From a virus (taxonomy: Duplodnaviria; Heunggongvirae; Uroviricota; Caudoviricetes), in the IMG/VR virus record IMGVR_UViG_3300028797_000099, positions 64,001 to 128,000 of that record: a DNA stretch of 64,000 nt. The stretch is one strand, 5' to 3'. Positions 3,266 through 11,997 of this stretch are shown piece after piece. Each line of letters starts with the position of its first letter. Position 1 is the stretch's first letter. The position numbers and the translations under genes were made by a program. The notes beneath the pieces are model-generated. The model ran no database searches. It was not told the origin of the DNA and worked only from the letters and a program-made list of their open reading frames with translations.

Positions 3266-3284
3266 CTTTCGGCTTTGCAATTAG

Positions 3285-3358
3285 TACCCGAGACAGGGGT
3301 CGAACCTGTCACCAACGGTTTAGAAGACCGTCGCTCTAGTCCACTGAGCTACTCGGGC
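3285..3358 (-). tRNA. tRNA-Arg(TCT)
   Basis: Cloverleaf; ACGGT-CTTCTAA-ACCGT. Confidence 0.9.
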
Positions 3359-3369
3359 AAGTTCATTAG

Positions 3370-3443
3370 TCGGCAGAGTGGGACTCGAACCCACAAAATC
3401 TTGGGTTTGAACCAAGCACGTATACCAGTTCCATCACCTGCCG
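3370..3443 (-). tRNA. tRNA-Leu(CAA), short variable loop
   Basis: CTTGG-TTCAAAC-CCAAG; Leu-type D loop, 5-nt variable region. Confidence 0.8.
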
Positions 3444-3450
3444 AATTTAG

Positions 3451-3534
3451 TCGGTAAGGGGGGACTCGAACCCCCACGTCCTTACGGACACCAGCCCCTC
3501 AAGCTGATGCGCCTACCAGTTCCGCCACCTACCG
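3451..3534 (-). tRNA. tRNA-Leu(GAG)
   Basis: TCAGC-TTGAGGG-GCTGG; long variable arm. Confidence 0.9.
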
Positions 3535-3552
3535 AGATGGAAATAAAAGTAA

Positions 3553-3634
3553 TCGGAAAGGTGGGACTCGAACCCACACACCTTTCAGCACAAGAGCCTA
3601 AATCTTGCGTGTCTACCAGTTCCACCACAATCCG
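3553..3634 (-). tRNA. tRNA-Leu(TAG)
   Basis: CAAGA-TTTAGGC-TCTTG; long arm; two U-U mismatches in acceptor stem. Confidence 0.85.
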
Positions 3635-3648
3635 AAAAAAAGTTATAG

Positions 3649-3721
3649 CAGGACGTGATGGACTCGAACCACCGACTAACAGTTTTGGAGACTGCAGACC
3701 TACCAACTGGTCGAACGCCCT
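3649..3721 (-). tRNA. tRNA-Trp(CCA)
   Basis: GCAGT-CTCCAAA-ACTGT. Confidence 0.9.
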
Positions 3722-3754
3722 GTAATGGATGGCCTTTCGGCCACCCGAATGAAA

Positions 3755-5098
3755 CTACTCTTCGGTGTTTCCATTCATCTTTTCGTACTCAGCAATGTAC
3801 TTGAAGATACCGTCGCTGAATCCGTTGATGTGAATGAACTTACCGTATTCAATTCCGTTCTGGTACGTTGCTACGTTCACAATGTACTTGTGCGGAATTC
3901 TGAGTACTTCCTTGCTGAAGTAGCTACCAGAAGACTGTTCGTCCGTAATGATAATCAATCGGTCGAACGGTCTGTTGTTAGCCTTGACAGCATCGTTCGT
4001 GCTTCTCTGGATGTCAGTACCACCCATAGAACGAGCACAACGGTCAGCAAGAGAGAAACCCTTCTCCGTGCAAAGATGTGCAGTATTGTCAAAGGTGTAG
4101 ACCTTCGTGAACTCGCACACTTCGTTCATGATAGCAGCGATGGAAGCTGCTGCCTGAGCACGGGTGACTTCGCCCTTGCCGGACAACTGACAACTCATGG
4201 AACCCGACGTGTCAACCATGAAGAGAGTGTTCCCTTCAAGCTTGTCGAACGTTTCCCTGGCGGATTGAAGCATTGCTGCTTCAAGCTGCTTGGAGTATGT
4301 TCCAGCGCTGTACTTGTTGGCCGTATAGAAGTTGTACGGCATGACACCACGAACATTCATCTTCTCGATGCCATCCACGATTGCTCGTTGTGACACCTTT
4401 GCCTGCTCCATGTTGCGGAGGTTCCTCAACAGGGCAAGCGCACCGAGCCTGTTCTGGGAAAGAAGGTTCTCGAAGACTTCCTTCTTATCCTTGCCTGCGC
4501 TCAACTCAGTTTCCCAGGTAAGCGGTGTTGCAAGGCTGTCGTCCACAATCTTCTTGTAGAGAGCGTTCGTTTCGTCGTTCGGGGCCTTCGGGTGGCAAAG
4601 CATGACCGCATCCTTCAAGGAAACCGTCTTCTTCGTGCCCTTGTACTTACCGAACTGGTACTCGTCGAACTTGGCGAATGCCAATGCGAGACCCTTCTGC
4701 AACTGCTTCGGCAACGTCTTCTTGCCTTCCGCAAGGAACATTGCAAGCAACTCGGTGATGTCATCAACACGGGTTACGGTCGAATTGACAAGTTCCTTGG
4801 TAAGCTTGCCTTGCTGTGCAAGAACAGTCAGCATGAACAACGGGGTATGACGAAGGTGATATTCGTGTTTTACCTTGTTCAATGTTGCAATGGCGAACTC
4901 GGTGCTGACCTTGCCCATGTACTCCTTGATGCGGTCCTTGACCGACTGACCGTCCTCATAGAACGTATCCTCGTTCAAAAGACAGCTGAGCACGGTACGC
5001 TGCAGCTTCTCCTCGTAGCCAATGTGTGATGCCTTTCCACCCTCGTAAGTAGACACCGGGGTAGATACCTTTCTCTTGTTAATCGACGCCATAATCAT
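3755..5098 (-). CDS. rsr: TROVE-domain Ro60-like RNA-binding protein with C-terminal vWA domain
   Basis: TYEGG, L.RTVLSCLL.ED.FYE, LRHTPL, KFDEYQFGKY, TWETELS, ALLRNLRN; vWA DTSGSM, GGTD, IITDEQ. Confidence 0.92.
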   Translation of the reverse strand: MIMASINKRKVSTPVSTYEGGKASHIGYEEKLQRTVLSCLLNEDTFYEDGQSVKDRIKEYMGKVSTEFAIATLNKVKHEYHLRHTPLFMLTVLAQQGKLTKELVNSTVTRVDDITELLAMFLAEGKKTLPKQLQKGLALAFAKFDEYQFGKYKGTKKTVSLKDAVMLCHPKAPNDETNALYKKIVDDSLATPLTWETELSAGKDKKEVFENLLSQNRLGALALLRNLRNMEQAKVSQRAIVDGIEKMNVRGVMPYNFYTANKYSAGTYSKQLEAAMLQSARETFDKLEGNTLFMVDTSGSMSCQLSGKGEVTRAQAAASIAAIMNEVCEFTKVYTFDNTAHLCTEKGFSLADRCARSMGGTDIQRSTNDAVKANNRPFDRLIIITDEQSSGSYFSKEVLRIPHKYIVNVATYQNGIEYGKFIHINGFSDGIFKYIAEYEKMNGNTEE

Positions 5099-5138
5099 CT
5101 CCTTTGTTGATTAGGAATTGTTGATGTTGAAAAAATAT

Positions 5139-5277
5139 TGCCAGATGCCGGACTCGAACCGACAACTTCCTGCTTGGATTATCTAAGTAGCACATCCAAC
5201 GCCACAGACCATATGGACTGGGAAAAAGCGAACGTGAACATTGAGGGCTGGCGCTCTACCTATTGAGCTAATCTGAC
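5139..5277 (-). ncRNA. tRNA-shaped Y-like RNA A (tRNA-Gly-like body, ~65-nt insert in anticodon loop)
   Basis: Acceptor GTCAGAT/ATCTGGC, D arm, T arm TTCGAGT; insert CGCTTTTTCCC...GTGGCGTTGGA..TACTTAG. Confidence 0.75.
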
Positions 5278-5287
5278 ATAAATGTAG

Positions 5288-5432
5288 TGCCGATGGAAAG
5301 ATTCGAACTTTCAATAGTTTTTAGCTAAGTAACTCTCACTATCGCAGCGGTTTCCCGAGAAAAGCGCAAGAGGAACATTTCCCCTGCCAGTTATCAACCT
5401 GTGACACAGATTGACGGGGAAATAACATCGGC
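5288..5432 (-). ncRNA. tRNA-shaped Y-like RNA B (D arm replaced by long hairpin)
   Basis: Acceptor GCCGATG/CATCGGC, T arm GAAAG-TTCGAAT-CTTTC, module GCTTTTCTC...TGCGATAG..TTACTTAG. Confidence 0.65.
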
Positions 5433-5445
5433 ATAAAAATTGTAG

Positions 5446-5579
5446 TACCATAGGCTGGATTTGAACCAACGACCACAAGTTCCTCATCGAAGTAAGCCAT
5501 TCAAACGTCACCTTTTCAGGGAAAAAAGACGAAAGGCGATTTCATATACTCGTGCTCTACCAGACTGAGCTACTATGGT
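5446..5579 (-). ncRNA. tRNA-shaped Y-like RNA C
   Basis: Acceptor ACCATAG/CTATGGT, D and T arms; insert CTTTCGTCTTTTTTCCC-TGAAAA-GGTGACGTTTGAATGGCTTACTT. Confidence 0.75.
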
Positions 5580-5586
5580 ATTTTAG

Positions 5587-5670
5587 AGGAGAGAACAGGG
5601 TTCGAACCTGCGTGTCGTTTCCGACAAAGCTTTAGCAAAGCTCCGCTTTTACCAATTCAGCCATCTCTCC
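5587..5670 (-). tRNA. tRNA-Ser(GCT)
   Basis: GAGCT-TTGCTAA-AGCTT; long arm. Confidence 0.9.
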
Positions 5671-5674
5671 ATAA

Positions 5675-5748
5675 TGTGCTTGGCCAGAGTCGAACTGGCG
5701 ACCTACAGTTTAGGAAACTGTTGCTCTATCCAGCTGAGCTACAAGCAC
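5675..5748 (-). tRNA. tRNA-Arg(CCT)
   Basis: ACAGT-TTCCTAA-ACTGT. Confidence 0.9.
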
Positions 5749-5755
5749 AAGCGGA

Positions 5756-6037
5756 TTACTTCAATGTATCATCAGTGTATTCCAACGATACCTTGTCATT
5801 GCCGAAAAAGATTTCGACAGTAACAGTGTAAACCTTTTCAGTGTTGTACCTGTCCCAAACTCGCCACAACTTGGCACCAACGGAAGCTGCGGCACCCTGG
5901 AAGATGTCGCATACGCTATTAAGGACATCCTTCTTAGGCAAGGTCGTATCTTTGCTATCGACCGTTTTAAGCAACTTCGCCATCTTGTCAGCAACGGCTG
6001 CCTTTACAGCATTAACATCATTCAATGATGCACTCAT
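5756..6037 (-). CDS. Hypothetical protein inside tRNA array
   Basis: AAAGGAG SD before ATG 6037 (MSASLNDV...). Confidence 0.65.
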   Translation of the reverse strand: MSASLNDVNAVKAAVADKMAKLLKTVDSKDTTLPKKDVLNSVCDIFQGAAASVGAKLWRVWDRYNTEKVYTVTVEIFFGNDKVSLEYTDDTLK

Positions 6038-6065
6038 ATCATCTCCTTTACTGTTTAACATTTCG

Positions 6066-6150
6066 AGCGCACGGTAAGAGTCGAACTTACGTGGGCGTTC
6101 AGCCTAGAGGTGTTGCAGACCTCCCCCTTCGACCGCTTGGGTACGTGAGC
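6066..6150 (-). tRNA. tRNA-Cys(GCA) with long variable arm
   Basis: GAGGT-CTGCAAC-ACCTC; U73; Tyr-like D loop and long arm. Confidence 0.75.
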
Positions 6151-6154
6151 AAAA

Positions 6155-6755
6155 ATCGCCATTCTCTTTATAACAAACCGAATGGCGAAGGCCGTGTATC
6201 CTTATATAGACACAATCATCCACGCTTATGTACACTAACATGGCCAGTTTTTCGGATTCACCGCAGGGAACAGTACCTGATTGTAACAACGAAGACGTCT
6301 GTTATCTTGACTTAATGCACCTCTTGCAACAACATTGCTGTACCCGCCCTCATTAAGGACCTGCCTCTATTCGGAACGGCAGCTGCAATTCTTTGTCGGT
6401 ACACATGGGCTTTAATACCCACATTCCTTCGTGCAATATATCCTGTTAGAAAGAACAGGAACTTGTGCATCATCTTCTTCCCTTGGCTTCCACACCTTGA
6501 ATGAGAGCAGTCTGCCCTCACCGATTTGGGTTTAACTAATCGGGATGATGCATCGGGAATCACACGGATAGTAGCATGCCAGTCACGGTGAACTATCTGC
6601 GTCCTATCCATAACTACCGCCAACTGCATTGTGGCGAAGACGGCAGTCATTTTTTAGTGATTGTGGAAAATCTTGTCGGCACCCGTTATGTGGCTTTCGC
6701 CGCAACCTTTGGCTTTTATAACGTGTCTTGCAACACATGACCATCTTTCAGTGCC
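6155..6755 (-). ncRNA. Candidate ~600-nt structured RNA
   Basis: No convincing ORF; multiple perfect inverted repeats; sits between tRNAs. Confidence 0.35.
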
Positions 6756-6762
6756 TATTTAG

Positions 6763-6835
6763 TTGGGGTAGCTGGACTCGAACCAACGAATATGGGAATC
6801 AAAATCCCATGTCTTACCAACTTGACGATACCCCA
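6763..6835 (-). tRNA. tRNA-Gln(TTG)
   Basis: TGGGA-TTTTGAT-TCCCA. Confidence 0.9.
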
Positions 6836-6842
6836 GTAATAG

Positions 6843-6915
6843 TACCCCATCAAGGGTTCGAACCTTGGACCCGCTGATTAAGAGTCAGCTGCTCTTCCAA
6901 CTGAGCTAATGAGGC
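6843..6915 (-). tRNA. tRNA-Lys(CTT)
   Basis: GCTGA-CTCTTAA-TCAGC. Confidence 0.9.
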
Positions 6916-6924
6916 GAAACTTCG

Positions 6925-6997
<73 letters not shown>

Positions 6998-7001
6998 ATA
7001 G

Positions 7002-7074
7002 AGCGGATAATGGGGTTCGAACCCACAACAACCTGCTTGGAGGGCAGGAACTCTACCAGTTGAGCTACATCCGC
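7002..7074 (-). tRNA. tRNA-Gly(TCC), C at position 33
   Basis: CCTGC-CCTCCAA-GCAGG; U73. Confidence 0.85.
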
Positions 7075-7082
7075 AAAATTAG

Positions 7083-7152
7083 TTAACCTTCGTGAATTCG
7101 AACCACGACACAGAACGAACCGAAGCCCGTTGTGCGCCAAACCTGGAGGCTA
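7083..7152 (-). ncRNA. tRNA-like RNA with UUCG tetraloop in place of anticodon loop
   Basis: Acceptor TAGCCTC/AAGGTTA, T arm CGTGG-TTCGAAT-TCACG, AACGGGC-TTCG-GTTCGTT. Confidence 0.55.
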
Positions 7153-7404
7153 AGATTTGTGCACCAATCTATTGCACCATCAGCTCTTTGGGACGCTGAC
7201 ACCCCACCTTCATCTCGGGACGGTGCGAAACGCTATCTATTTGACACTCGCCAAGGCATAGAATTATCCTTATGTGAAGTTCACCCGCATTACCAGATAC
7301 GGTTTTCGACGCCATATCCTTCCTGCCCTTTTTACTTCCAACTTTAGAGGCCGTTTGATTTGCAATGTCATCACAGTAAATAAACGGTAAGAAAGCAAGA
7401 TTCG

Positions 7405-7480
7405 TGGGCCCCCCGAGACTTGAACTCGGAAAACCTTCGGGTTATGAGTCCGCTGCTCTGACCTATTGAGCTAGAGGCCC
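7405..7480 (-). tRNA. tRNA(CAT), probably Ile2 (lysidine type)
   Basis: GGGCCTC acceptor, CTCATAA loop; resembles bacterial Ile2; weak anticodon stem. Confidence 0.7.
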
Positions 7481-7491
7481 AGAAACAATTT

Positions 7492-7623
7492 GATTAGGAT
7501 AGCACCAATGAGCAGCACGTTGTATTACTACAACTCGGTCTCACAGCTACCATTTCCCTCCCTTGGAGGAGAGCGTATTAAGCACTCAGCATTACTACAT
7601 TGAGTTCATTTATACGACTAATC
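7492..7623 (-). ncRNA. Structured RNA H, closed by GATTAG/CTAATC, with anticodon-like hairpin (TAA)
   Basis: GAGTG-CTTAATA-CGCTC followed by TCCTCC-AAG-GGAGGG and GTTGTA-GTAA-TACAAC hairpins. Confidence 0.4.
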
Positions 7624-7627
7624 TTAG

Positions 7628-7758
7628 CGCCAGCGGCAGGACTCGAACCTACGACCCCGAGCTTCCTAATGCTAAGTAACCCATTCCAAAACGCCACCCT
7701 TGCGGGAGAAAATGCGGACAGGTGTTGTACGTGCTCTAACCAACTGAGCTACGCTGGC
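7628..7758 (-). ncRNA. tRNA-shaped Y-like RNA D (56-nt insert, 8-nt anticodon-position loop)
   Basis: GCCAGCG/CGCTGGC acceptor; CG[insert]AGC-ATTAGGAA-GCTCG; T arm. Confidence 0.78.
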
Positions 7759-7766
7759 AAAAAAAA

Positions 7767-7859
7767 TCCAGGTAAATGCAGAAACCGATGTGCCCATCGC
7801 AAGGCACTATACATTAAGAGTGTACAAGGTCTATGTATCGGTTATCTATCGACACTGGA
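7767..7859 (-). ncRNA. Permuted Y-like RNA G displaying a Lys(CTT) anticodon stem-loop
   Basis: TCCAG-TGTCGAT...TTTAC-CTGGA closing stem; GTACA-CTCTTAA-TGTAT. Confidence 0.62.
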
Positions 7860-7870
7860 TGAATTTCTAG

Positions 7871-7999
7871 TACCAGGGGCAGGACTCGAACCTACGACCA
7901 CGAGCTTAACAGGCTAAGTAACCCGTTCCAAACGCCACCCTTGCGGGAGAAAAACGGACAGGTATTTTTACGTGCTCTAACCAACTGAGCTACCCTGGA
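7871..7999 (-). ncRNA. tRNA-shaped Y-like RNA E (tRNA-Asn(GTT) plus 55-nt insert between nt 28 and 29)
   Basis: Removing the insert yields a 74-nt cloverleaf with CGAGC-CTGTTAA-GCTCG. Confidence 0.8.
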
Positions 8000-8008
8000 G
8001 AAAAATTA

Positions 8009-8095
8009 AAGTCAGGTAAAAGACGAAAGCGCATTGCCATAGGCGAACGGATTTGCAGTCTGTTTCTAAGTAACGCTTTCAAACGACACTGACTT
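8009..8095 (-). ncRNA. Permuted Y-like RNA F displaying a GCA anticodon stem-loop
   Basis: AAGTCAG-TGTCGTTTGAAAGCG-TTACTTAG...AACAGA-CTGCAAA-TCCGTT...CGCTTTC-GTCTTTTAC-CTGACTT. Confidence 0.68.
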
Positions 8096-8097
8096 AG

Positions 8098-8186
8098 TGG
8101 GTTGAATAGGAGTCGAACCTACAATGTTTACCCAGAGGGAACGGATTTACAGTCCGTTGCGAAACCACCATCCTCGCAGTCAACCC
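8098..8186 (-). tRNA. tRNA-Tyr(GTA)
   Basis: AACGGA-CTGTAAA-TCCGTT; long arm. Confidence 0.85.
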
Positions 8187-8201
8187 AAATAAAATTGTTA
8201 C

Positions 8202-8274
8202 TGGAGCATAGGAGATTCGAACTCCTGACCCCCTGCGTGCAAAGCAGGTGCTCTACCAACTGAGCTAATACCCC
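8202..8274 (-). tRNA. tRNA-Ala(TGC)
   Basis: CCTGC-TTTGCAC-GCAGG; G3.U70. Confidence 0.92.
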
Positions 8275-8335
8275 ATAAATTGCAAAGCCAAAATTTCAAT
8301 CAGCGGGCTAACAACTCGTGTCAACCACGGTCAGA

Positions 8336-8364
8336 AAGATAGAAACTAAGACATCGTTTGTCAA
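8336..8364 (-). promoter_or_regulatory. Internal sigma70-type promoter of the RNA array
   Basis: TTGACA-N17-TATCTT with AT-rich upstream tract. Confidence 0.7.
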
Positions 8365-8398
8365 GGGTTTCTACCAAAATTTTCAAACTTTTTTTTAG

Positions 8399-8480
8399 TC
8401 GGGTACGTGAGATTCGAACCCACACTCCTCGCAGAACATCGCCCTGAACGATGCGTGTCTACCAATTCCACCAGAACCCG
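8399..8480 (-). tRNA. tRNA-Leu(CAG)
   Basis: CATCG-TTCAGGG-CGATG; long arm. Confidence 0.9.
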
Positions 8481-8486
8481 AAGTAG

Positions 8487-8561
8487 TTGCGGAGAACGGA
8501 CTTGAACCGTTGACACACGGATTATGATTCCGTTGCTCTAAACCAACTGAGCTACACCGCA
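8487..8561 (-). tRNA. tRNA-Met(CAT), elongator
   Basis: ACGGA-ATCATAA-TCCGT. Confidence 0.8.
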
Positions 8562-8564
8562 TCG

Positions 8565-8855
8565 GTGATGACGCTTTTGGACTATCAGTCTACGGTCTTT
8601 CATAGCAGGTACGTCATCGTGGGCAACCTCAAACTTCTCCAGTTGTAGTCGTTTGCCACCTCGGGTTCGTAAGCACCTCGCATGCTTCAACCCGTCATTA
8701 GCTCTTTTACGAGAAGAACGCTAATGGCCTTTTAAATGGCGGCGTTTTAGCCTGTCACCGAGCAGGGGCCACGTTTCCCGTCCATCCCATGCCCGTCTCG
8801 GCATGATTGACTCAAATTGACGGGACCCGCCTTGCAAGCACAACAAAATCATAGA
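8565..8855 (-). ncRNA. Candidate structured RNA (~290 nt)
   Basis: Serial stems GATGACG/CGTCATC, GGCAA/TTGCC, CGGGTT/AACCCG, CATTAGC/GCTAATG. Confidence 0.35.
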
Positions 8856-8863
8856 ATAGTTAG

Positions 8864-8934
8864 TCCGCCAGTCGAGACTCGAACTCGAACTAAGGGAATC
8901 ACAATCCCTTGTGCTACCGTTACACCACTGAGGG
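8864..8934 (-). tRNA. tRNA-His(GTG), atypical (A73, no encoded G-1)
   Basis: AGGGA-TTGTGAT-TCCCT. Confidence 0.75.
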
Positions 8935-8939
8935 GGTAG

Positions 8940-9014
8940 TACTCCCAATAGGATTCGAACCTATGACCCCTTGCTTGTAAGGCAAGCGCTCTGAACCAAC
9001 TGAGCTATGGAAGT
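8940..9014 (-). tRNA. tRNA-Val(TAC)
   Basis: CTTGC-CTTACAA-GCAAG. Confidence 0.9.
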
Positions 9015-9022
9015 AAATTTAG

Positions 9023-9105
9023 CGCAACCAGCGAGACTTGAACTCGCACGCCCATAGGGCACCAGCGTGACAGGCTGGCCTGGCTACCAATTTCAGCATG
9101 GCTGC
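9023..9105 (-). tRNA. tRNA-Asp(GTC) with long variable arm
   Basis: CCAGC-CTGTCAC-GCTGG; arm TGCCC-TAT-GGGCG; G73. Confidence 0.78.
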
Positions 9106-9112
9106 ATACATA

Positions 9113-9186
9113 TAGCTCCAACGGGACTCGAACCCGTATTACCGCCTTGAGAGGGCGACGAACTAGGCCAGTTATTCGATAGAGCC
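9113..9186 (-). tRNA. tRNA-Glu(CTC)
   Basis: TCGCC-CTCTCAA-GGCGG. Confidence 0.9.
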
Positions 9187-9194
9187 AAAATACA

Positions 9195-9376
9195 ATGGAT
9201 AGGTGAATATGCGGAGTATCACCGTGACAGCTTCCCCGTACCGATGCGAAATCTGCTTATAACCTAAAACAAACCGTTTCGCTTTTACGCCTATCTTGTC
9301 GGCACGTATATCTGTCGTAGCTGGCATGTAGGTTGTTCCTTCAGGCAACCAGCCCGCTGAACAGAGTTCTATCCAA
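9195..9376 (-). ncRNA. Candidate ~180-nt long irregular hairpin RNA (6S-like shape)
   Basis: GGATAG/CTATCC ends; GACAG/CTGTC, CGTGCCGA/TCGGTACG, GCGAAA/TTTCGC stems separated by bubbles. Confidence 0.4.
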
Positions 9377-9382
9377 TGTTAG

Positions 9383-9459
9383 TGACACTAGCAGGACTCG
9401 AACCTGCGACCTTCTCGTTCGTAGCGAGACGCTCTAAATTCCGACTGAGCTATAATGCC
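9383..9459 (-). tRNA. tRNA-Arg(ACG)
   Basis: TCTCG-CTACGAA-CGAGA. Confidence 0.9.
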
Positions 9460-9468
9460 ATAAAAGTA

Positions 9469-9541
9469 AGCGTCATGTCGGACTCGAACCGACGACCTTC
9501 TCCATGGCAAGGAGACGCTCTACCAACTGAGCTAATGACGC
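9469..9541 (-). tRNA. tRNA-Gly(GCC)
   Basis: TCTCC-TTGCCAT-GGAGA; U73. Confidence 0.9.
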
Positions 9542-9549
9542 AGTAAAAG

Positions 9550-9642
9550 AAGCGAGGGTGGGATTCGAACCCACGGATGACAGGGCCACTGCCACCGACG
9601 GTTTTCAAGACCGCTGCAATAAGCCAGCTCTACCACCTCGCC
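9550..9642 (-). tRNA. tRNA-Ser(TGA)
   Basis: GCGGT-CTTGAAA-ACCGT; long arm. Confidence 0.9.
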
Positions 9643-9650
9643 ATATTTAG

Positions 9651-9724
9651 TCGGAATGGCAGGATTTGGACCTACGACCTCTTGCTCCCGAAGCAAGCGC
9701 TCTACCAGACTGAGCTATATTCCG
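9651..9724 (-). tRNA. tRNA-Pro(CGG)
   Basis: CTTGC-TTCGGGA-GCAAG. Confidence 0.88.
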
Positions 9725-9731
9725 AAATTTA

Positions 9732-10005
9732 TTTAAACACAAACTTACAGGCGTCCTAATTTCAAGGACGGATTAAGGAGCACACTTGGTGGTTAACCCA
9801 AAGTTTATCTCCCCCATTCTTATTTCAAATGGTCTCACGTGGCATATTTTAGTAGAGCCAATACTACACCTCTGCGACCATCATTCTGGTATTCATCTAA
9901 TTCGCAGAGACAGATTCCTCATCCCTGAGTTTTCCCCATCAGGGTTAGCCCGTTAGCATGAAATCAAGAACGATGCAACACGGGTTCTACTCATTTGTGT
10001 TTAAA
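9732..10005 (-). ncRNA. Candidate ~275-nt multi-hairpin RNA
   Basis: 12-bp terminal stem TTTAAACACAAA/TTTGTGTTTAAA enclosing at least 6 hairpins. Confidence 0.5.
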
Positions 10006-10019
10006 CAAAGTTTGATGAA

Positions 10020-10240
10020 TTCGAGGAGCTGCGGGGGTTACGGCATCCTTTCCGCTTGTCGCCGAGGCCATCGGTTTGTCATCTATGTTGCGAACGGGCT
10101 CACCTACTAGCCCTTACATAGACCGAAGATGGTTATCGTTACCATTTAATAGCAGGCTTCATCACGCCTCCCGTCCATCGATATCCGAACGAAACGGGTC
10201 TGGCCCTCAATGACGGACATTTAGCCAGATGTTTTCTAAC
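10020..10240 (-). ncRNA. Candidate structured RNA (~220 nt)
   Basis: Stems TCTGGC/GCCAGA, CCCGT/ACGGG, ATGGT/ACCAT, GGGCT/AGCCC. Confidence 0.3.
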
Positions 10241-10330
10241 TCCGACAGTAAGACTCGAACTTACGACCTGAGCTTTAGGTGACTACTTATGGCTACTGAG
10301 TGAACCATATTACACCTATAATTTAATTAG

Positions 10331-10403
10331 CTCCGATGGAGAGACTCGAACTCCCGACCAGCTCATTACGAATGAGCTGCTCTACCAACTGAGCTACAAC
10401 GGA
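10331..10403 (-). tRNA. tRNA-Thr(CGT)
   Basis: GCTCA-TTCGTAA-TGAGC. Confidence 0.88.
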
Positions 10404-10409
10404 ATGTAG

Positions 10410-10483
10410 TAGCGCCAACGGGACTCGAACCCGTATTGCCGCCTTGAAAGGGCGATGAACTAGGCCAGTTATTCGATAGCGCC
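10410..10483 (-). tRNA. tRNA-Glu(TTC)
   Basis: TCGCC-CTTTCAA-GGCGG; near-copy of tRNA-Glu(CTC). Confidence 0.9.
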
Positions 10484-10493
10484 AAAAATATAG

Positions 10494-10567
10494 TCCGCAA
10501 CCCTGGACTCGAACCAGGAACCTCCACCTTATCAGAGTGGCTATCTAACCAGTTGCTATAGCTGCGG
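10494..10567 (-). tRNA. tRNA-Ile(GAT)
   Basis: CCACT-CTGATAA-GGTGG. Confidence 0.85.
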
Positions 10568-10654
10568 ATAAAAACAATAGGTGGGTGGTTTATAACCACC
10601 AAAATCCCACCCCGTGGGCACCTACTTTGTTTCACCTATTGTTTAATACTTTCG

Positions 10655-10728
10655 TGCCAGCTTCTGGAGTCGAACCAGACTACTCGGATTTTCAGTCCGG
10701 CCCAATCACCGGGTTTGGGTTAGCTGGC
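10655..10728 (-). tRNA. tRNA-Phe(GAA)
   Basis: CCGGA-CTGAAAA-TCCGA. Confidence 0.85.
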
Positions 10729-10824
10729 AAAATGATTGACCAAGAATCACGAAGGAGTCCAACCTTCCACATGGACTGAGCCATCGCCAGCGGGAACATT
10801 GAGACCCTTGGCCAATCGAGTTAG

Positions 10825-10898
10825 TAGCGGGGGCAGGACTCGAACACTGCGACCTTTGGGTTATGAGCCCAACAAGCTACCAACTGCTCCACCCCGCA
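10825..10898 (-). tRNA. tRNA-fMet(CAT), initiator
   Basis: TTGGG-CTCATAA-CCCAA (three G-C pairs); 1:72 mismatch. Confidence 0.88.
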
Positions 10899-10911
10899 AA
10901 TTTCTTCATAG

Positions 10912-10984
10912 TTGCCGTTGAGCGGTTCGAACGCCCGAATACAGGAGTCAGAGTCCTGTGCCTTACCAGCTTGGCGAAACGGCA
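10912..10984 (-). tRNA. tRNA-Gln(CTG)
   Basis: CAGGA-CTCTGAC-TCCTG. Confidence 0.88.
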
Positions 10985-10992
10985 ATAAATAG

Positions 10993-11063
10993 CTCACGTT
11001 AAAGGAATCGAACCTTTGTTTCCCGCTGCAGACAGGCAACTCTTCCAGTTAAGCTAAACGTGA
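10993..11063 (-). pseudogene. Degenerate tRNA, anticodon undetermined (TGC?)
   Basis: Good acceptor TCACGTT/AACGTGA and T arm; irregular anticodon arm GCCTG-TCTGCAG-CGGGA. Confidence 0.5.
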
Positions 11064-11066
11064 ATA

Positions 11067-11139
11067 AGCCTGTGGAGAGGCTCGAACTCCCGACCAGATG
11101 CTTACAAAGCAACTGCTCTACCAACTGAGCTACACAGGC
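11067..11139 (-). tRNA. tRNA-Thr(TGT)
   Basis: GTTGC-TTTGTAA-GCATC. Confidence 0.88.
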
Positions 11140-11144
11140 GATAA

Positions 11145-11520
11145 AACAACTTCACCAATTCCACCATCATATCGGCCTACACCGATATTAACTTCTCCCG
11201 CTCCCGAAGCGAGTGTGTCTCCTGATTACAAAGCTAAAATGCTCAGGCTAATAGGCGGCCCTTTTCGGTTGGGTTCCCACAATGGAGCTACCATCACGAT
11301 TATCACAACCTATTAGGGGCCGCTTTTCACCTGCGGATGTTTCTGGGAGCTACCCAGAGGTCCATTCTAAACTTGGGGCGTCGTTTTGCTTTACCGTCCC
11401 TACCGTCCCGGCCAGACTTCCTGCGCACTCCGTACTAGCCTGCGAATTTCGTTTCAGCGGATGTATATGCGGTAGTTAACTACCACCTGGGAACTATGCC
11501 ATAACCTGTGTCAACATCCT
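11145..11520 (-). ncRNA. Candidate ~370-nt structured RNA
   Basis: Hairpins GGTAG-TTAA-CTACC, CTGGG-TAGCT-CCCAG, ATATCGG-TGTAGG-CCGATAT; no credible ORF. Confidence 0.35.
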
Positions 11521-11531
11521 TTTAAATTTAG

Positions 11532-11604
11532 CTGACATGACTGGACTCGAACCAGTGACCAGACGATTAACAGTCGCCGACTCTACCTACTGAGCTACAT
11601 GTCA
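11532..11604 (-). tRNA. tRNA-Asn(GTT)
   Basis: GGCGA-CTGTTAA-TCGTC; G73. Confidence 0.9.
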
Positions 11605-11610
11605 ATAATA

Positions 11611-11920
11611 TCCCTGGGCACCACCCCTTTCACATGTTGTCATGGGTGCGTCAGGATTGGACGCAGAAAGCTTTACTCAAAGCTAACGAACCTACCGCCT
11701 GTAACGATGGGTAAACACCGAATGGAGGAAATAGGACCAATTACCGATTACCTTTTACCATTTTAGACGGATTTGTTGTCGGTTGTGGCACCAAACCCCA
11801 ACGAACTGGCCGTCGCCAGACATAGAGTTTGCAAACCGTCAGAAAGCCACTTTACCATAAAGCATATACCGAAGTATATACCGATGGTTCTCGTCCATCC
11901 AACACAAACTGGAAGGACAA
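11611..11920 (-). ncRNA. Candidate ~310-nt structured RNA
   Basis: ATATAC-TTCG-GTATAT, CTGGC-GACG-GCCAG, AGCTTT-GAGT-AAAGCT, TGCGTC/GACGCA. Confidence 0.35.
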
Positions 11921-11923
11921 TAG

Positions 11924-11997
11924 TCGGGGTAGCCAGATTCGAACTGACGACATCCTGCTCCCAAAGCAGGCGCTCTACCAGACTGAGCTACACCCCG
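11924..11997 (-). tRNA. tRNA-Pro(TGG)
   Basis: CCTGC-TTTGGGA-GCAGG. Confidence 0.9.

What the first reader, a model, noticed from the sequence alone, without database searches (positions are those of the whole stretch)
7492..8095. Small RNAs that display isolated anticodon stem-loops on the shared module (possible nuclease decoys)
Seen: F (8009-8095) carries AACAGA-CUGCAAA-UCCGUU plus a small hairpin, almost a copy of the adjacent tRNA-Tyr anticodon arm (AACGGA-CUGUAAA-UCCGUU) but with GCA. G (7767-7859) carries GUACA-CUCUUAA-UGUAU, whose loop is identical to this phage's tRNA-Lys(CUU) loop, plus a hairpin. H (7492-7623, weaker) has GAGUG-CUUAAUA-CGCUC; UAA is a Leu anticodon with no tRNA gene found in this array. 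None has D, T or acceptor arms. Established: several anti-phage systems cleave anticodon loops, notably tRNA-Lys (PrrC, PARIS). Inference: these are Ro-stabilised anticodon decoys or sensors, complementary to the D/T-bearing RNAs.
Basis: partly seen in the sequence, partly recalled or inferred. Interest (0 to 1): 0.85.

Follow-up and report, generated by a model that had tools for sequence, protein, structure and literature searches.

The report
Short phage Y RNAs with tRNA remnants
Two of the three small RNAs are real partner RNAs (Y RNAs) of a Ro60 protein encoded by a huge rumen phage, and one carries a copied piece of a tRNA, but relatives do not keep these anticodon-like hairpins, so the "nuclease decoy" idea stays untested and is weakened.

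Summary
F (8095-8009) and G (7859-7767), both on the minus strand, are real. They lie in a tRNA operon 2.7-3 kb upstream of a phage Ro60 gene, and both recur in nine related megaphage genomes.

**Docking module.** Both carry one module: a terminal helix, an internal loop holding GUCG, a second helix and a UUACUUAG exit. The tRNA-shaped RNAs beside Ro60 carry the same module. So do Y-RNA arrays beside distant phage Ro60 genes.

**F.** Its hairpin matches tRNA-Tyr nt 28-55 at 24 of 28 positions. It has an A-C mismatch and is marginally stable. Five distinct more distant relatives lack that arm.

**G.** Its hairpin is kept in all relatives, with a fully replaced stem. Its pyrimidine-rich loop varies from 7 to 9 nt. 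This resembles published short Y RNAs (YrlB, Yrn2) more than a strict tRNA-Lys mimic.

**H.** It is a structured RNA found in only two genomes. The proposed hairpin has a pair probability of 0.004 and no tRNA likeness.

**Verdict.** F and G are short Ro60-docking Y RNAs with tRNA-derived or pyrimidine-rich tips. A decoy role is not excluded (about 0.12), and a competitive-inhibitor idea is already published for YrlA. This scan has noted Ro-like proteins with handle-RNA arrays on other phage DNA before.

The parts
8009..8095 (-). F: 87-nt short Y-RNA-type sRNA (docking module plus two distal hairpins)
   Evidence: Covariance model R1: 77.7 bits, E 1e-15. Orthologues in nine related genomes. The 5' strand matches the module of A, C, D and E at 18/22 to 21/28, with at most 1 of 300 shuffles reaching the score (0 for A, D, E). 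The 3' strand matches A at 12/12.
8081..8095 (-). F terminal helix, 5' strand (8095-8089, pairs with 8015-8009), and the 5' side of the internal loop with GUCG (8088-8081): proposed Ro60 docking site
   Evidence: Helix 100% paired across 11 F and G sequences, with 2 pairs changed on both sides. The GNCG core resembles the GNCGAAN0-1G motif of bacterial Y RNAs (PMC4201824) and the family consensus GGUGG(C/U)G-NAG.
8066..8080 (-). F second helix, 5' strand (8080-8074, pairs with 8031-8025), and exit motif UUACUUAG (8073-8066)
   Evidence: Helix 89.9% paired with both-side changes. L041 has a GCG/CGC to GUG/CAC compensatory change. GNUACUU[CA] occurs 49 times in 31.7 kb upstream of distant Ro genes, against a chance rate elsewhere.
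8046..8064 (-). F distal hairpin 1: tRNA-Tyr-like anticodon arm with a GCA 'anticodon' and an A-C mismatch
   Evidence: 2 mismatches to the tRNA-Tyr arm. 24/28 identity to tRNA-Tyr nt 28-55. Pair probability 0.34-0.50. Present only in the window, L041, L002 and L005; absent in the 84-85% clade.
8036..8044 (-). F distal hairpin 2: GCC-UAU-GGC, resembling the start of the tRNA-Tyr variable arm
   Evidence: Included in the 24/28 alignment to tRNA-Tyr.
8009..8031 (-). F 3' strand of the module: helix strand, pyrimidine-rich internal-loop strand ending UUUUAC, terminal helix strand
   Evidence: UUUACCUG is exact in F and G. 12/12 match to RNA A.
7767..7859 (-). G: 93-nt short Y-RNA-type sRNA
   Evidence: R1: 77.9 bits, E 1e-15. 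Fold z-score -2.76. Orthologues in all nine related genomes. In L007 its 5' strand matches the E module at 17/21, 0 of 500 shuffles.
7809..7825 (-). G distal hairpin 1: 5-bp stem with pyrimidine-rich 7-nt loop CUCUUAA
   Evidence: Pair probability 0.77-0.89. Predicted in the MFE of all nine distinct orthologues. The stem is fully replaced between clades (GUACA/UGUAU, UCUGU/ACAGA, UCUGA/UCAGA). Loops are 7, 8 or 9 nt.
7790..7807 (-). G distal hairpin 2: G+C-rich 5-bp stem
   Evidence: Kept in all orthologues, with the loop changed from 8 nt to a tetraloop.
7492..7623 (-). H: 132-nt structured RNA of uncertain class (possibly a divergent Y RNA)
   Evidence: Fold z-score -3.22. Found only in the window and L041. 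A clean indel relative to L002 and L005. Of 8 substitutions against L041, 7 fall in unpaired positions and 1 turns G-U into G-C. Not hit by R1 or Rfam.
8097..8186 (-). tRNA-Tyr(GUA), directly 5' of F: likely source of F's distal domain, and the tRNA whose 3' processing would define F's 5' end
   Evidence: ARAGORN; alignment.
7870..7998 (-). E: tRNA-Asn-like RNA with the 55-nt docking module inside its anticodon stem, between F and G
   Evidence: Removing the module leaves a 74-nt cloverleaf with loop CUGUUAA. Top window hit of the distant-family model R2.
7626..7757 (-). D: second tRNA-like RNA with a 56-nt module, between G and H
8336..8364 (-). Promoter-like site TTGACA-17-TATCTT upstream of tRNA-Ala. 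The likely transcription unit is Ala-Tyr-F-E-G-D-H-Met
   Evidence: No terminator-like site occurs between the promoter and H.
3755..5098 (-). Phage Ro60 homologue (TROVE plus vWA, 447 aa), the proposed protein partner
   Evidence: Pfam TROVE 1.3e-15. Full-length match to phiLo Ro60 (9KOP, 9L5Y), E 1.4e-26.
5139..5579 (-). A, B and C: three tRNA-shaped RNAs carrying the same module, directly upstream of Ro60

Best explanation
F and G are short Y RNAs, that is, partner RNAs of the phage's own Ro60 protein. They are of the YrlB/Yrn2 kind, which lacks a tRNA body.

Inferred mechanism:
1. They are transcribed from the promoter-like site upstream of tRNA-Ala, as part of the precursor Ala-Tyr-F-E-G-D-H-Met.
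2. RNase P and tRNA 3'-end processing of the neighbouring tRNA and tRNA-like units set them free.
3. Each folds into a rod: a terminal helix from the 5' and 3' ends, a conserved asymmetric internal loop (5' side UGUCG(A/U)U(A/U), 3' side pyrimidine-rich and ending UUUAC), a second helix, and the exit sequence UUACUUAG (ACAUAG in G).
4. This module docks on the outer face of the Ro60 ring, as in other Y RNAs, and thereby gates or tunes Ro60.

What the comparison shows about the tips:
- F's tip is a lineage-specific copy or conversion of the anticodon arm plus variable arm of the adjacent tRNA-Tyr.

I read the anticodon likeness mainly as ancestry. Y RNAs of this family are repeatedly built from tRNA pieces. 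I do not read it as a conserved mimic of one tRNA.

H is a separate structured RNA of unknown class. Its proposed anticodon hairpin probably does not form.
For: Genes and conservation:
- F and G are on the same strand as Ro60 and 2.7-3.0 kb upstream of it.
- Model R1 finds exactly two hits per genome in the window, in its 175-kb record and in nine relatives.
- Module helices are 93.6% paired, with 4 pairs changed on both sides. Slid controls give 25-53%.

The module is shared:
- F against A, C, D, E: 18/22 to 21/28 identity, at most 1 of 300 shuffles reaching the score (0 for A, D, E).
- G against E in L007: 17/21, 0 of 500 shuffles.

Family context:
- GNUACUU[CA] occurs 49 times in the 31.7 kb just upstream of distant Ro genes, against 53 times in 434 kb elsewhere, which is the chance rate.
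- These loci hold 2-5 tandem RNAs, a mix of T-arm-bearing and short ones.
- One of them scores 42 bits, E 4e-8, against Rfam YrlA.
- A model built only from distant loci ranks E, B and D among the top four hits in the window.

Protein partner: a full-length homologue of phiLo Ro60, which binds stem-bulge-stem Yrl RNAs (PMC12135203).

Tips are labile:
- E and D are 84-92% identical between clades. F aligns only over its first 30 nt, and G gives no BLAST hit.
- The tRNA-Tyr-like arm of F is absent from the 84-85% clade. G's loops are 7-9 nt.

Against: - No binding data exist.
- Rfam YrlA does not hit F, G or H even at E 10. The distant-family sequence model R2 also misses F and G, so their link to the family runs through paralogy with A-E.
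- The published CGAA core is CGAU in G and CGUU in F.

Hints that the tips are not mere leftovers:
- F's 34-nt distal domain has 0 changes between the window and L041, while about 7 changes fall in the other 53 nt. My hand count gives a hypergeometric p of about 0.03.
- Every genome of the clade keeps a CUGCAAA loop next to UUACUUAG, on either F or D.
- G's loop equals the Lys(CUU) loop exactly (null 0.24%).
- In a rough scan of distant arrays, 17 of 35 hairpins with 7-nt loops after the exit motif have U at loop position 2 and a purine at position 6, against 13% in controls. The figure is about 11 of 24 after I removed T arms by eye.
Confidence: 0.6

Rival explanations
1. Decoy or sensor. F and G, held by Ro60, present isolated anticodon arms (Tyr/Cys-like and Lys-like). 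These either soak up host anticodon nucleases or are cut by them. A cut would release or activate Ro60, in a phage that also carries the repair ligase RtcB.
For: - F's arm is truly tRNA-derived.
- G's loop equals the Lys(CUU) loop.
- F's distal domain is invariant within its own subclade.
- The genome encodes RtcB.
- tRNA-targeting defences and phage tRNA counter-measures are established (PMC12409363).
- Hughes et al. [quoted passage not shown]
Against: - F's arm is missing from the 84-85% clade.
- G's loop is 7, 8 or 9 nt, and its 'anticodon' drifts (CUU, UUU, UUC).
- F's stem has a conserved A-C mismatch and is marginally stable.
- H's hairpin does not form.
- Most short Y RNAs in distant Ro loci have no such hairpin.
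- The full tRNA-plus-module RNAs E and D would be better decoys.
Confidence: 0.12
2. Specific tether. The distal hairpins are binding sites for a defined protein, such as host PNPase or another exonuclease, a tRNA-modifying enzyme that recognises anticodon arms, or a phage protein. F and G would then direct Ro60 to different partners.
For: - Y RNAs tether Ro60 to PNPase in Deinococcus, and phiLo Yrl RNAs bind host PNPase (PMC4201824, PMC12135203).
- G's two hairpins are kept as structures in all nine orthologues.
- Pyrimidine-rich loops recur in short Y RNAs.
Against: - The stem sequence of G's hairpin 1 is entirely replaced between clades, and its loop length varies.
- F's tip is replaced by an unstructured loop in relatives. 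A sequence-specific site should be better conserved.
Confidence: 0.15
3. Not independent RNAs. F, G and H would be structured spacers of the tRNA precursor that only guide processing or are degraded after it, with no Ro60 role.
For: - They sit exactly between tRNA or tRNA-like units, with 1-11-nt linkers.
- No expression data exist.
- Rfam does not recognise them.
Against: - Both module strands are far better conserved than the tips.
- The same module occurs in RNAs next to Ro60 here and in distant phages.
- Most other gaps between tRNAs in the array are only a few nt long.
Confidence: 0.08

Closest known systems
Short bacterial Y RNAs: S. Typhimurium and M. smegmatis YrlB, D. radiodurans Yrn2 (Chen et al. 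2014, PMC4201824)
   Same: - A second, shorter Ro60-bound RNA encoded near Ro60 on the same strand.
- A rod-like fold closed by the 5' and 3' ends.
- A GNCG-type motif near the 5' end.
- A small pyrimidine-rich loop at the tip (as in G).
- Co-transcribed with the tRNA-like Y RNA.
   Different: - The motif here is GUCG(A/U)U(A/U)G rather than GNCGAAN0-1G.
- The RNAs are interleaved with tRNA genes and are probably released by tRNA processing.
- F's tip is a recognisable copy of a tRNA anticodon arm plus variable arm.
- No binding data.
YrlA (Rfam RF02553), the tRNA-like Y RNA
   Same: - Same docking module and the UUACUU exit sequence as YrlA-type RNAs in distant phage Ro loci. One of these scores 42 bits against RF02553.
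- F and G are paralogues of the tRNA-shaped RNAs A-E in this phage.
   Different: - F and G have no T, D or acceptor arms.
- RF02553 gives no hit at E 10.
Thermus phage phiLo Ro60 with Yrl1 and Yrl2 (PMC12135203; PDB 9KOP, 9L5Y)
   Same: - The phage Ro60 is homologous over its full length (E 1.4e-26).
- The partner RNAs are stem-bulge-stem molecules with a CG-containing motif in the bulge near the 5' end, encoded upstream of Ro60.
   Different: - The phiLo RNAs have a CGAA core and lie directly upstream of the gene.
- Here there are at least 7 RNAs, spread through a tRNA array, with tRNA-derived tips.
Phage tRNAs that counter tRNA-cleaving defences (T5 tRNAs against PARIS AriB, PMC12409363) and the published suggestion that YrlA could competitively inhibit an anticodon nuclease (PMC7790460)
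   Same: Phage-encoded RNA with anticodon-arm features in a tRNA array. The conceptual basis of the decoy reading.
   Different: - Those are complete, functional tRNAs that replace cleaved ones.
- F and G cannot be aminoacylated.
- AriB cuts the stem at positions 40/41.
- No evidence of cleavage or protection here.
Small stable RNAs inside the phage T4 tRNA gene cluster (species 1 and 2; recalled from memory, not checked here)
   Same: Non-tRNA small RNAs that are co-transcribed and co-processed with phage tRNAs.
   Different: No known Ro60 link in T4. No sequence comparison was made.

Membership tests
Bacterial/phage Y RNA (Ro60 partner RNA) | Encoded within a few kb of a Ro60/TROVE gene, on the same strand | tested here: met
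   F, G and H lie 2.4-3.0 kb upstream of the TROVE/vWA gene 5098-3755, all on the minus strand.
Bacterial/phage Y RNA (Ro60 partner RNA) | 5' and 3' ends pair into a stem that is interrupted by a bulge or internal loop | tested here: met
   Two helices flank an 8 x 9-nt internal loop. They are 93.6% paired, with 4 pairs covarying across F and G orthologues. For H only a 6-bp terminal stem is seen.
Bacterial/phage Y RNA (Ro60 partner RNA) | GNCGAAN0-1G / CGAA motif near the 5' end | tested here: inconclusive
   F has GUCGUUUG and G has GUCGAUAG, so GNCG and the closing G are kept but AA is not. The family consensus in distant phage loci is GG(C/U)G-NAG, and L054 has GGCGAAGG.
Bacterial/phage Y RNA (Ro60 partner RNA) | Physical binding to, and stabilisation by, Ro60 | not testable with these tools
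   Needs RIP-seq or EMSA.
YrlA (Rfam RF02553) | Covariance-model score at or above the gathering threshold (69 bits), and a T/D/acceptor tRNA-like domain | tested here: not met
   No RF02553 hit on F, G or H at E up to 10. No T, D or acceptor arms.
YrlB/Yrn2-type short Y RNA | [quoted passage not shown] | tested here: met
   G: loops CUCUUAA, CUUUUAC, CUUUCAC, CUUUUCAC and CUUUUUACU in its orthologues, next to D and E. F meets the rod shape but its loop is not pyrimidine-rich.
tRNA anticodon stem-loop mimic | 5-bp stem and 7-nt loop with U at position 33 and a purine at position 37, in this genome | tested here: met
   F (6 pairs including one A-C mismatch; loop CUGCAAA) and G (loop CUCUUAA) fit. 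H (CUUAAUA, with U at position 37; pair probability 0.004) does not.
   F: the tRNA-Tyr-like arm is absent in the five distinct sequences of the 84-85% clade. L004 and L007 (L003 and L044 are identical) have only a 19-nt loop. L006 has a 4-bp stem with an 8-nt loop. L039 has a 4-bp stem with the 7-nt loop UAGCAAA, which lacks U33. G: the stem is kept but loops are 7, 8 or 9 nt. H: only one near-identical homologue.
Anticodon-nuclease decoy or sensor | Is cleaved by, or inhibits, a tRNA-targeting nuclease and protects the phage | not testable with these tools
   No computational proxy exists. The literature holds only a suggestion for YrlA (PMC7790460).

The most novel reading that the evidence does not exclude
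Ro60-docked short Y RNAs in megaphages carry free-standing anticodon arms that act as competitive inhibitors or cleavable sensors for host anticodon nucleases (or other enzymes that read anticodon arms). The fast turnover of the tips in F and G would then reflect an arms race with such enzymes rather than drift. The Ro60 / Y RNA / RtcB set would form a phage system that protects and repairs tRNA.
Probability: 0.12. Interest if true: 0.8.

Novelty: new variant of a known kind. Interest (0 to 1): 0.42.

Why it matters
- Ro60 and Y RNAs are conserved from bacteria to humans, but what bacterial and phage Y RNAs do is still unclear.
- This roughly 420-kb rumen phage carries an unusually rich set: at least five tRNA-shaped Y-like RNAs and two short ones, all inside a tRNA operon.
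- F shows directly how a Y RNA tip can be made from a piece of a neighbouring tRNA.
- The set gives a compact, testable panel (one docking module, different tips) for asking what the tips bind, and whether Ro60 particles take part in the phage-host conflict over tRNAs.

Tried and rejected
- **Rfam 15**, at gathering and at E up to 10: only tRNAs and noise on F, G and H.
- **blastn of the region against 50,697 phage records:** only tRNA matches, so no cultured relative.
- **IUPAC pattern for the F/G 5' strand in IMG/VR:** 21 stretches, but only the six known relatives are real. The 15 single matches score no better than E 0.2 with R1.
- **Exact 25-mer of H in IMG/VR:** none.
- **R1 on distant Ro loci:** only a weak hit, L047 at E 0.005.
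- **R2, a sequence model from distant loci only:** it finds E, B and D but not F or G. It therefore cannot serve as an independent membership test for F and G.
- **My first structure string for the second helix** was one column out of register. It was corrected. R1 was built with the wrong register, yet it still separates F and G cleanly.
- **MAFFT alignments of G's hairpin 1** split the stem. I therefore made no formal pair count for that hairpin. The evidence is the per-sequence MFE.
- **My guessed second helix in H** (AAUGA/UCAUU) is broken in L041 and was dropped.
- **Similarity of G's distal domain and of H to any tRNA:** at chance level.
- **Automated scan for anticodon-like loops:** confounded by T arms, so it is only a rough figure.
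- **RNA ligase PF09414 in the genome:** no hit, but the record is only 42% complete.
Full report
**1. Setting**

The window is part of a 175-kb IMG/VR virus record with a CheckV completeness of 42%. A relative sits on a 419-kb contig. Earlier notes of this scan call it a roughly 420-kb rumen phage.

Window positions 3284-11997 hold 36 tRNA genes on the minus strand. Inside this array lies a 447-aa gene, 5098-3755 on the minus strand, with TROVE and Ro60-vWA domains. It aligns over its full length to the Ro60 of Thermus phage phiLo (PDB 9KOP and 9L5Y, E 1.4e-26). That protein binds two Y-like RNAs in vitro (PMC12135203). The same genome encodes an RtcB RNA ligase about 38 kb away.

**2. What is at 7492-8095**

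Read on the minus strand, the order is: tRNA-Tyr, F, E, G, D, H, tRNA-Met. The linkers are 1-11 nt long. A promoter-like site, TTGACA-17-TATCTT, lies upstream of tRNA-Ala at 8364-8336, and no terminator-like site follows it before H.

E and D are tRNA-shaped. Removing a 55- or 56-nt insert leaves complete 74- and 76-nt tRNA-like sequences with their own anticodon arms. E's arm is canonical, with loop CUGUUAA. D's has an 8-nt loop. This agrees with another first-reader note (e1-5440302).

**3. The shared module is real**

F and G both start with CAGUGUCG and end with UUUACCUG.

- *Covariance model.* A model built from F and G orthologues finds exactly two hits per genome. This holds for the window, the whole 175-kb record and nine related genomes (E 1e-14 to 5e-20).
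- *Helices.* With the correct register, the two helices are 93.6% paired across 11 sequences, and four pairs change on both sides. Slid controls reach only 25-53%. The closest relative, L041 (Ro60 96% identical), adds a GCG/CGC to GUG/CAC compensatory change in F.
- *Shared with the tRNA-shaped RNAs.* F's 5' strand matches the module strand of A, C, D and E at 18/22 to 21/28. At most 1 of 300 shuffles reaches the score, and none does for A, D and E. F's 3' strand matches A at 12/12. In L007, G's 5' strand matches E at 17/21, with 0 of 500 shuffles.

**4. The module is a Ro60-linked family trait**

In loci found through distant Ro60 homologues (26-44% identity), the 8-mer GNUACUU[CA] occurs 49 times in the 31.7 kb just upstream of Ro60 on its strand. 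About 4 would be expected by chance. Elsewhere it occurs 53 times in 434 kb, which is the chance rate.

These sites mark arrays of 2-5 tandem RNAs. Their common 5' strand is GGUGG(C/U)G-NAG, then 5-6 nt, then G(U)UACUUC. Some carry T, acceptor and D arms, and others are short. One T-arm-bearing member scores 42 bits (E 4e-8) against Rfam YrlA.

The motif is a variant of the GNCGAAN0-1G that Chen et al. tie to Ro60 binding (PMC4201824). L054 even has GGCGAAGG. A sequence model built only from these distant loci ranks E, B and D among the top four hits in the window, but it does not reach F or G. F and G therefore join the family through their paralogy with A-E. Rfam itself does not recognise F, G or H.

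**5. The anticodon-like hairpins**

*F*
- Its 17-nt arm is 2 mismatches from this phage's tRNA-Tyr arm (null 3.8e-4).
- Its distal domain aligns to tRNA-Tyr nt 28-55, the anticodon arm plus the start of the variable arm, with 24/28 identity. That is the best hit in the array, and 0 of 500 shuffles reach it. F's tip is therefore tRNA-derived.
- It is weak. An A-C mismatch sits in the stem, the isolated hairpin is unfolded, and pair probabilities are 0.34-0.50.

*G*
- The hairpin is well predicted (pair probabilities 0.77-0.89).
- Its loop equals the Lys(CUU) loop (null 0.24% per hairpin).
- The stem and the rest of the distal domain are at chance level.

*H*
- The proposed hairpin has a pair probability of 0.004.
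- It has U at position 37.
- It resembles no tRNA.

**6.

*F.* The window, L041, L002 and L005 share an identical tip.
- L004 and L007 (L003 and L044 are identical to L007) keep both module strands, with the first 30 nt 100% identical. Their tip is only a 19-nt A-rich loop.
- L006 and L039 have a 4-bp stem with an 8- or 7-nt loop.

*G.* All nine distinct orthologues keep two hairpins. The 5-bp stem of hairpin 1 is entirely replaced between clades:

| Genomes | Stem | Loop |
|---|---|---|
| Window, L041 | GUACA/UGUAU | CUCUUAA |
| L002, L005 | GUACA/UGUAU | AUCUUAA |
| L007 | UCUGU/ACAGA | CUUUUAC |
| L006, L039 | UCUGU/ACAGA | CUUUCAC |
| L004 | UCUGU/ACAGA | CUUUUCAC (8 nt) |
| L003 | UCUGA/UCAGA | CUUUUUACU (9 nt) |

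This is a kept hairpin with a drifting, pyrimidine-rich loop. It is not a fixed 7-nt anticodon loop. [quoted passage not shown]

*H.* It exists only in the window and L041. It is a clean indel relative to L002 and L005. In the 84% clade an unrelated element of about 270 nt takes its place.

H is nonetheless a structured RNA (z-score -3.2). Of its 8 differences from L041, 7 fall in unpaired positions and 1 turns G-U into G-C.

**7. Reading**

F and G are best explained as short Y RNAs of the phage Ro60 particle. The docking module is the conserved, functional part. The tips are labile. F's is a recent copy of a tRNA piece, and G's is a generic pyrimidine-rich hairpin.

The family as a whole is built from tRNA parts attached to the module at different places: the anticodon stem at 28/29, the anticodon loop, or the acceptor position. 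Anticodon-like loops are therefore expected from ancestry alone.

**8. What keeps the decoy reading alive**

- F's tip has no change between the window and L041, while about 7 changes fall elsewhere in F. This is my hand count, with p of about 0.03.
- Every genome of the clade keeps one CUGCAAA loop, on F or on D.
- 7-nt loops with U at position 2 and a purine at position 6 are enriched after the exit motif in distant arrays. The rough count is 17 of 35, against 13% in controls, and T arms inflate it.
- The genome has RtcB.

The idea also has a published precedent. [quoted passage not shown] I found no paper that links Y RNAs to decoys experimentally, and none on Y RNAs in jumbo or mega phages.

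**9. Earlier notes of this scan**

The scan has already recorded Ro60-like proteins with arrays of 'handle' RNAs that display tRNA bodies or anticodon hairpins in many other phage genomes. Those are unchecked notes, and several concern a different handle (ACAGCAA). I did not use them as evidence.

**10. Verdict**

- The Ro60 link is supported by inference.
- This is a new variant of a known kind, of moderate interest.

Noticed in passing
window 7870-7998 and 7626-7757 (minus strand): E and D become complete 74- and 76-nt tRNA-like sequences once a 55-56-nt docking module is removed from between nt 28 and 29 of the anticodon stem. E keeps an Asn-like loop, CUGUUAA, in all relatives. D has AUUAGGAA here but CUGCAAA in the 84% clade.
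   Followed up: partly
L008-L012, L045-L067 (regions next to Ro60): Distant phage Ro60 loci hold 2-5 tandem Y-like RNAs with one module. The module is attached to tRNA parts at different places: inside the anticodon stem (L011, L047, L050, L054), in the anticodon loop (L008, L057), or at the acceptor position (L012 at -1145). Rfam's gathering threshold misses all of them.
   Followed up: partly
L004:6917-7186 (and the same place in L003, L006, L007): Where the window has H, the 84% clade has an unrelated element of about 270 nt that contains GGUGGCGAAAG, an exact GNCGAAN0-1G motif. It may be a further Y-like RNA. Models R1 and R2 do not hit it.
   Followed up: no
own genome G000:C1:28808-29875 (minus strand), about 38 kb before the Ro60 gene: An RtcB RNA ligase gene (205 bits). 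Ro60, Y RNAs and RtcB, which share one operon in Salmonella, are all present in this phage but unlinked.
   Followed up: no
window F 8052-8058; L004, L007, L003, L006 D RNAs; L006 F: The 7-mer CUGCAAA, a Cys-like anticodon loop, sits just after UUACUUAG in at least one Y-like RNA of every genome in the clade. It is on F in the window subclade and on D in the 84% subclade. This could be selection or gene conversion between paralogues.
   Followed up: partly
window 8097-8186, 6924-6997, 8486-8561: tRNA-Tyr, tRNA-Lys(UUU) and one tRNA-Met share the same anticodon stem, ACGGA/UCCGU. The tRNA-Tyr stem differs between relatives through compensatory changes (L041 CUGGA/UCCAG; L003 and L006 CCAGU/ACUGG).
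   Followed up: no
distant loci and window, loops after the UACUU exit motif: By eye, several of the anticodon-like loops carry G-U-N anticodons: GUU in E and L059, GUG in L050, GUC in L047, and the GUA-derived loop in F. This is the set read by queuosine-modified tRNAs and cut by colicin E5-type nucleases.
   Followed up: no
window 7075-7403, 8562-8862, 9188-9381, 9725-10329, 11140-11530, 11605-11922: Long gaps in the array (190-600 nt) with no tRNA, no ORF of 80 aa or more on the minus strand, and no Rfam hit. They may hold further unclassified RNAs.
   Followed up: no
window 5756-6061 and 6312-6650 (minus strand): Two small ORFs (101 and 112 aa) inside the tRNA / Y-RNA array, with no Pfam or NCBIfam match.
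   Followed up: no
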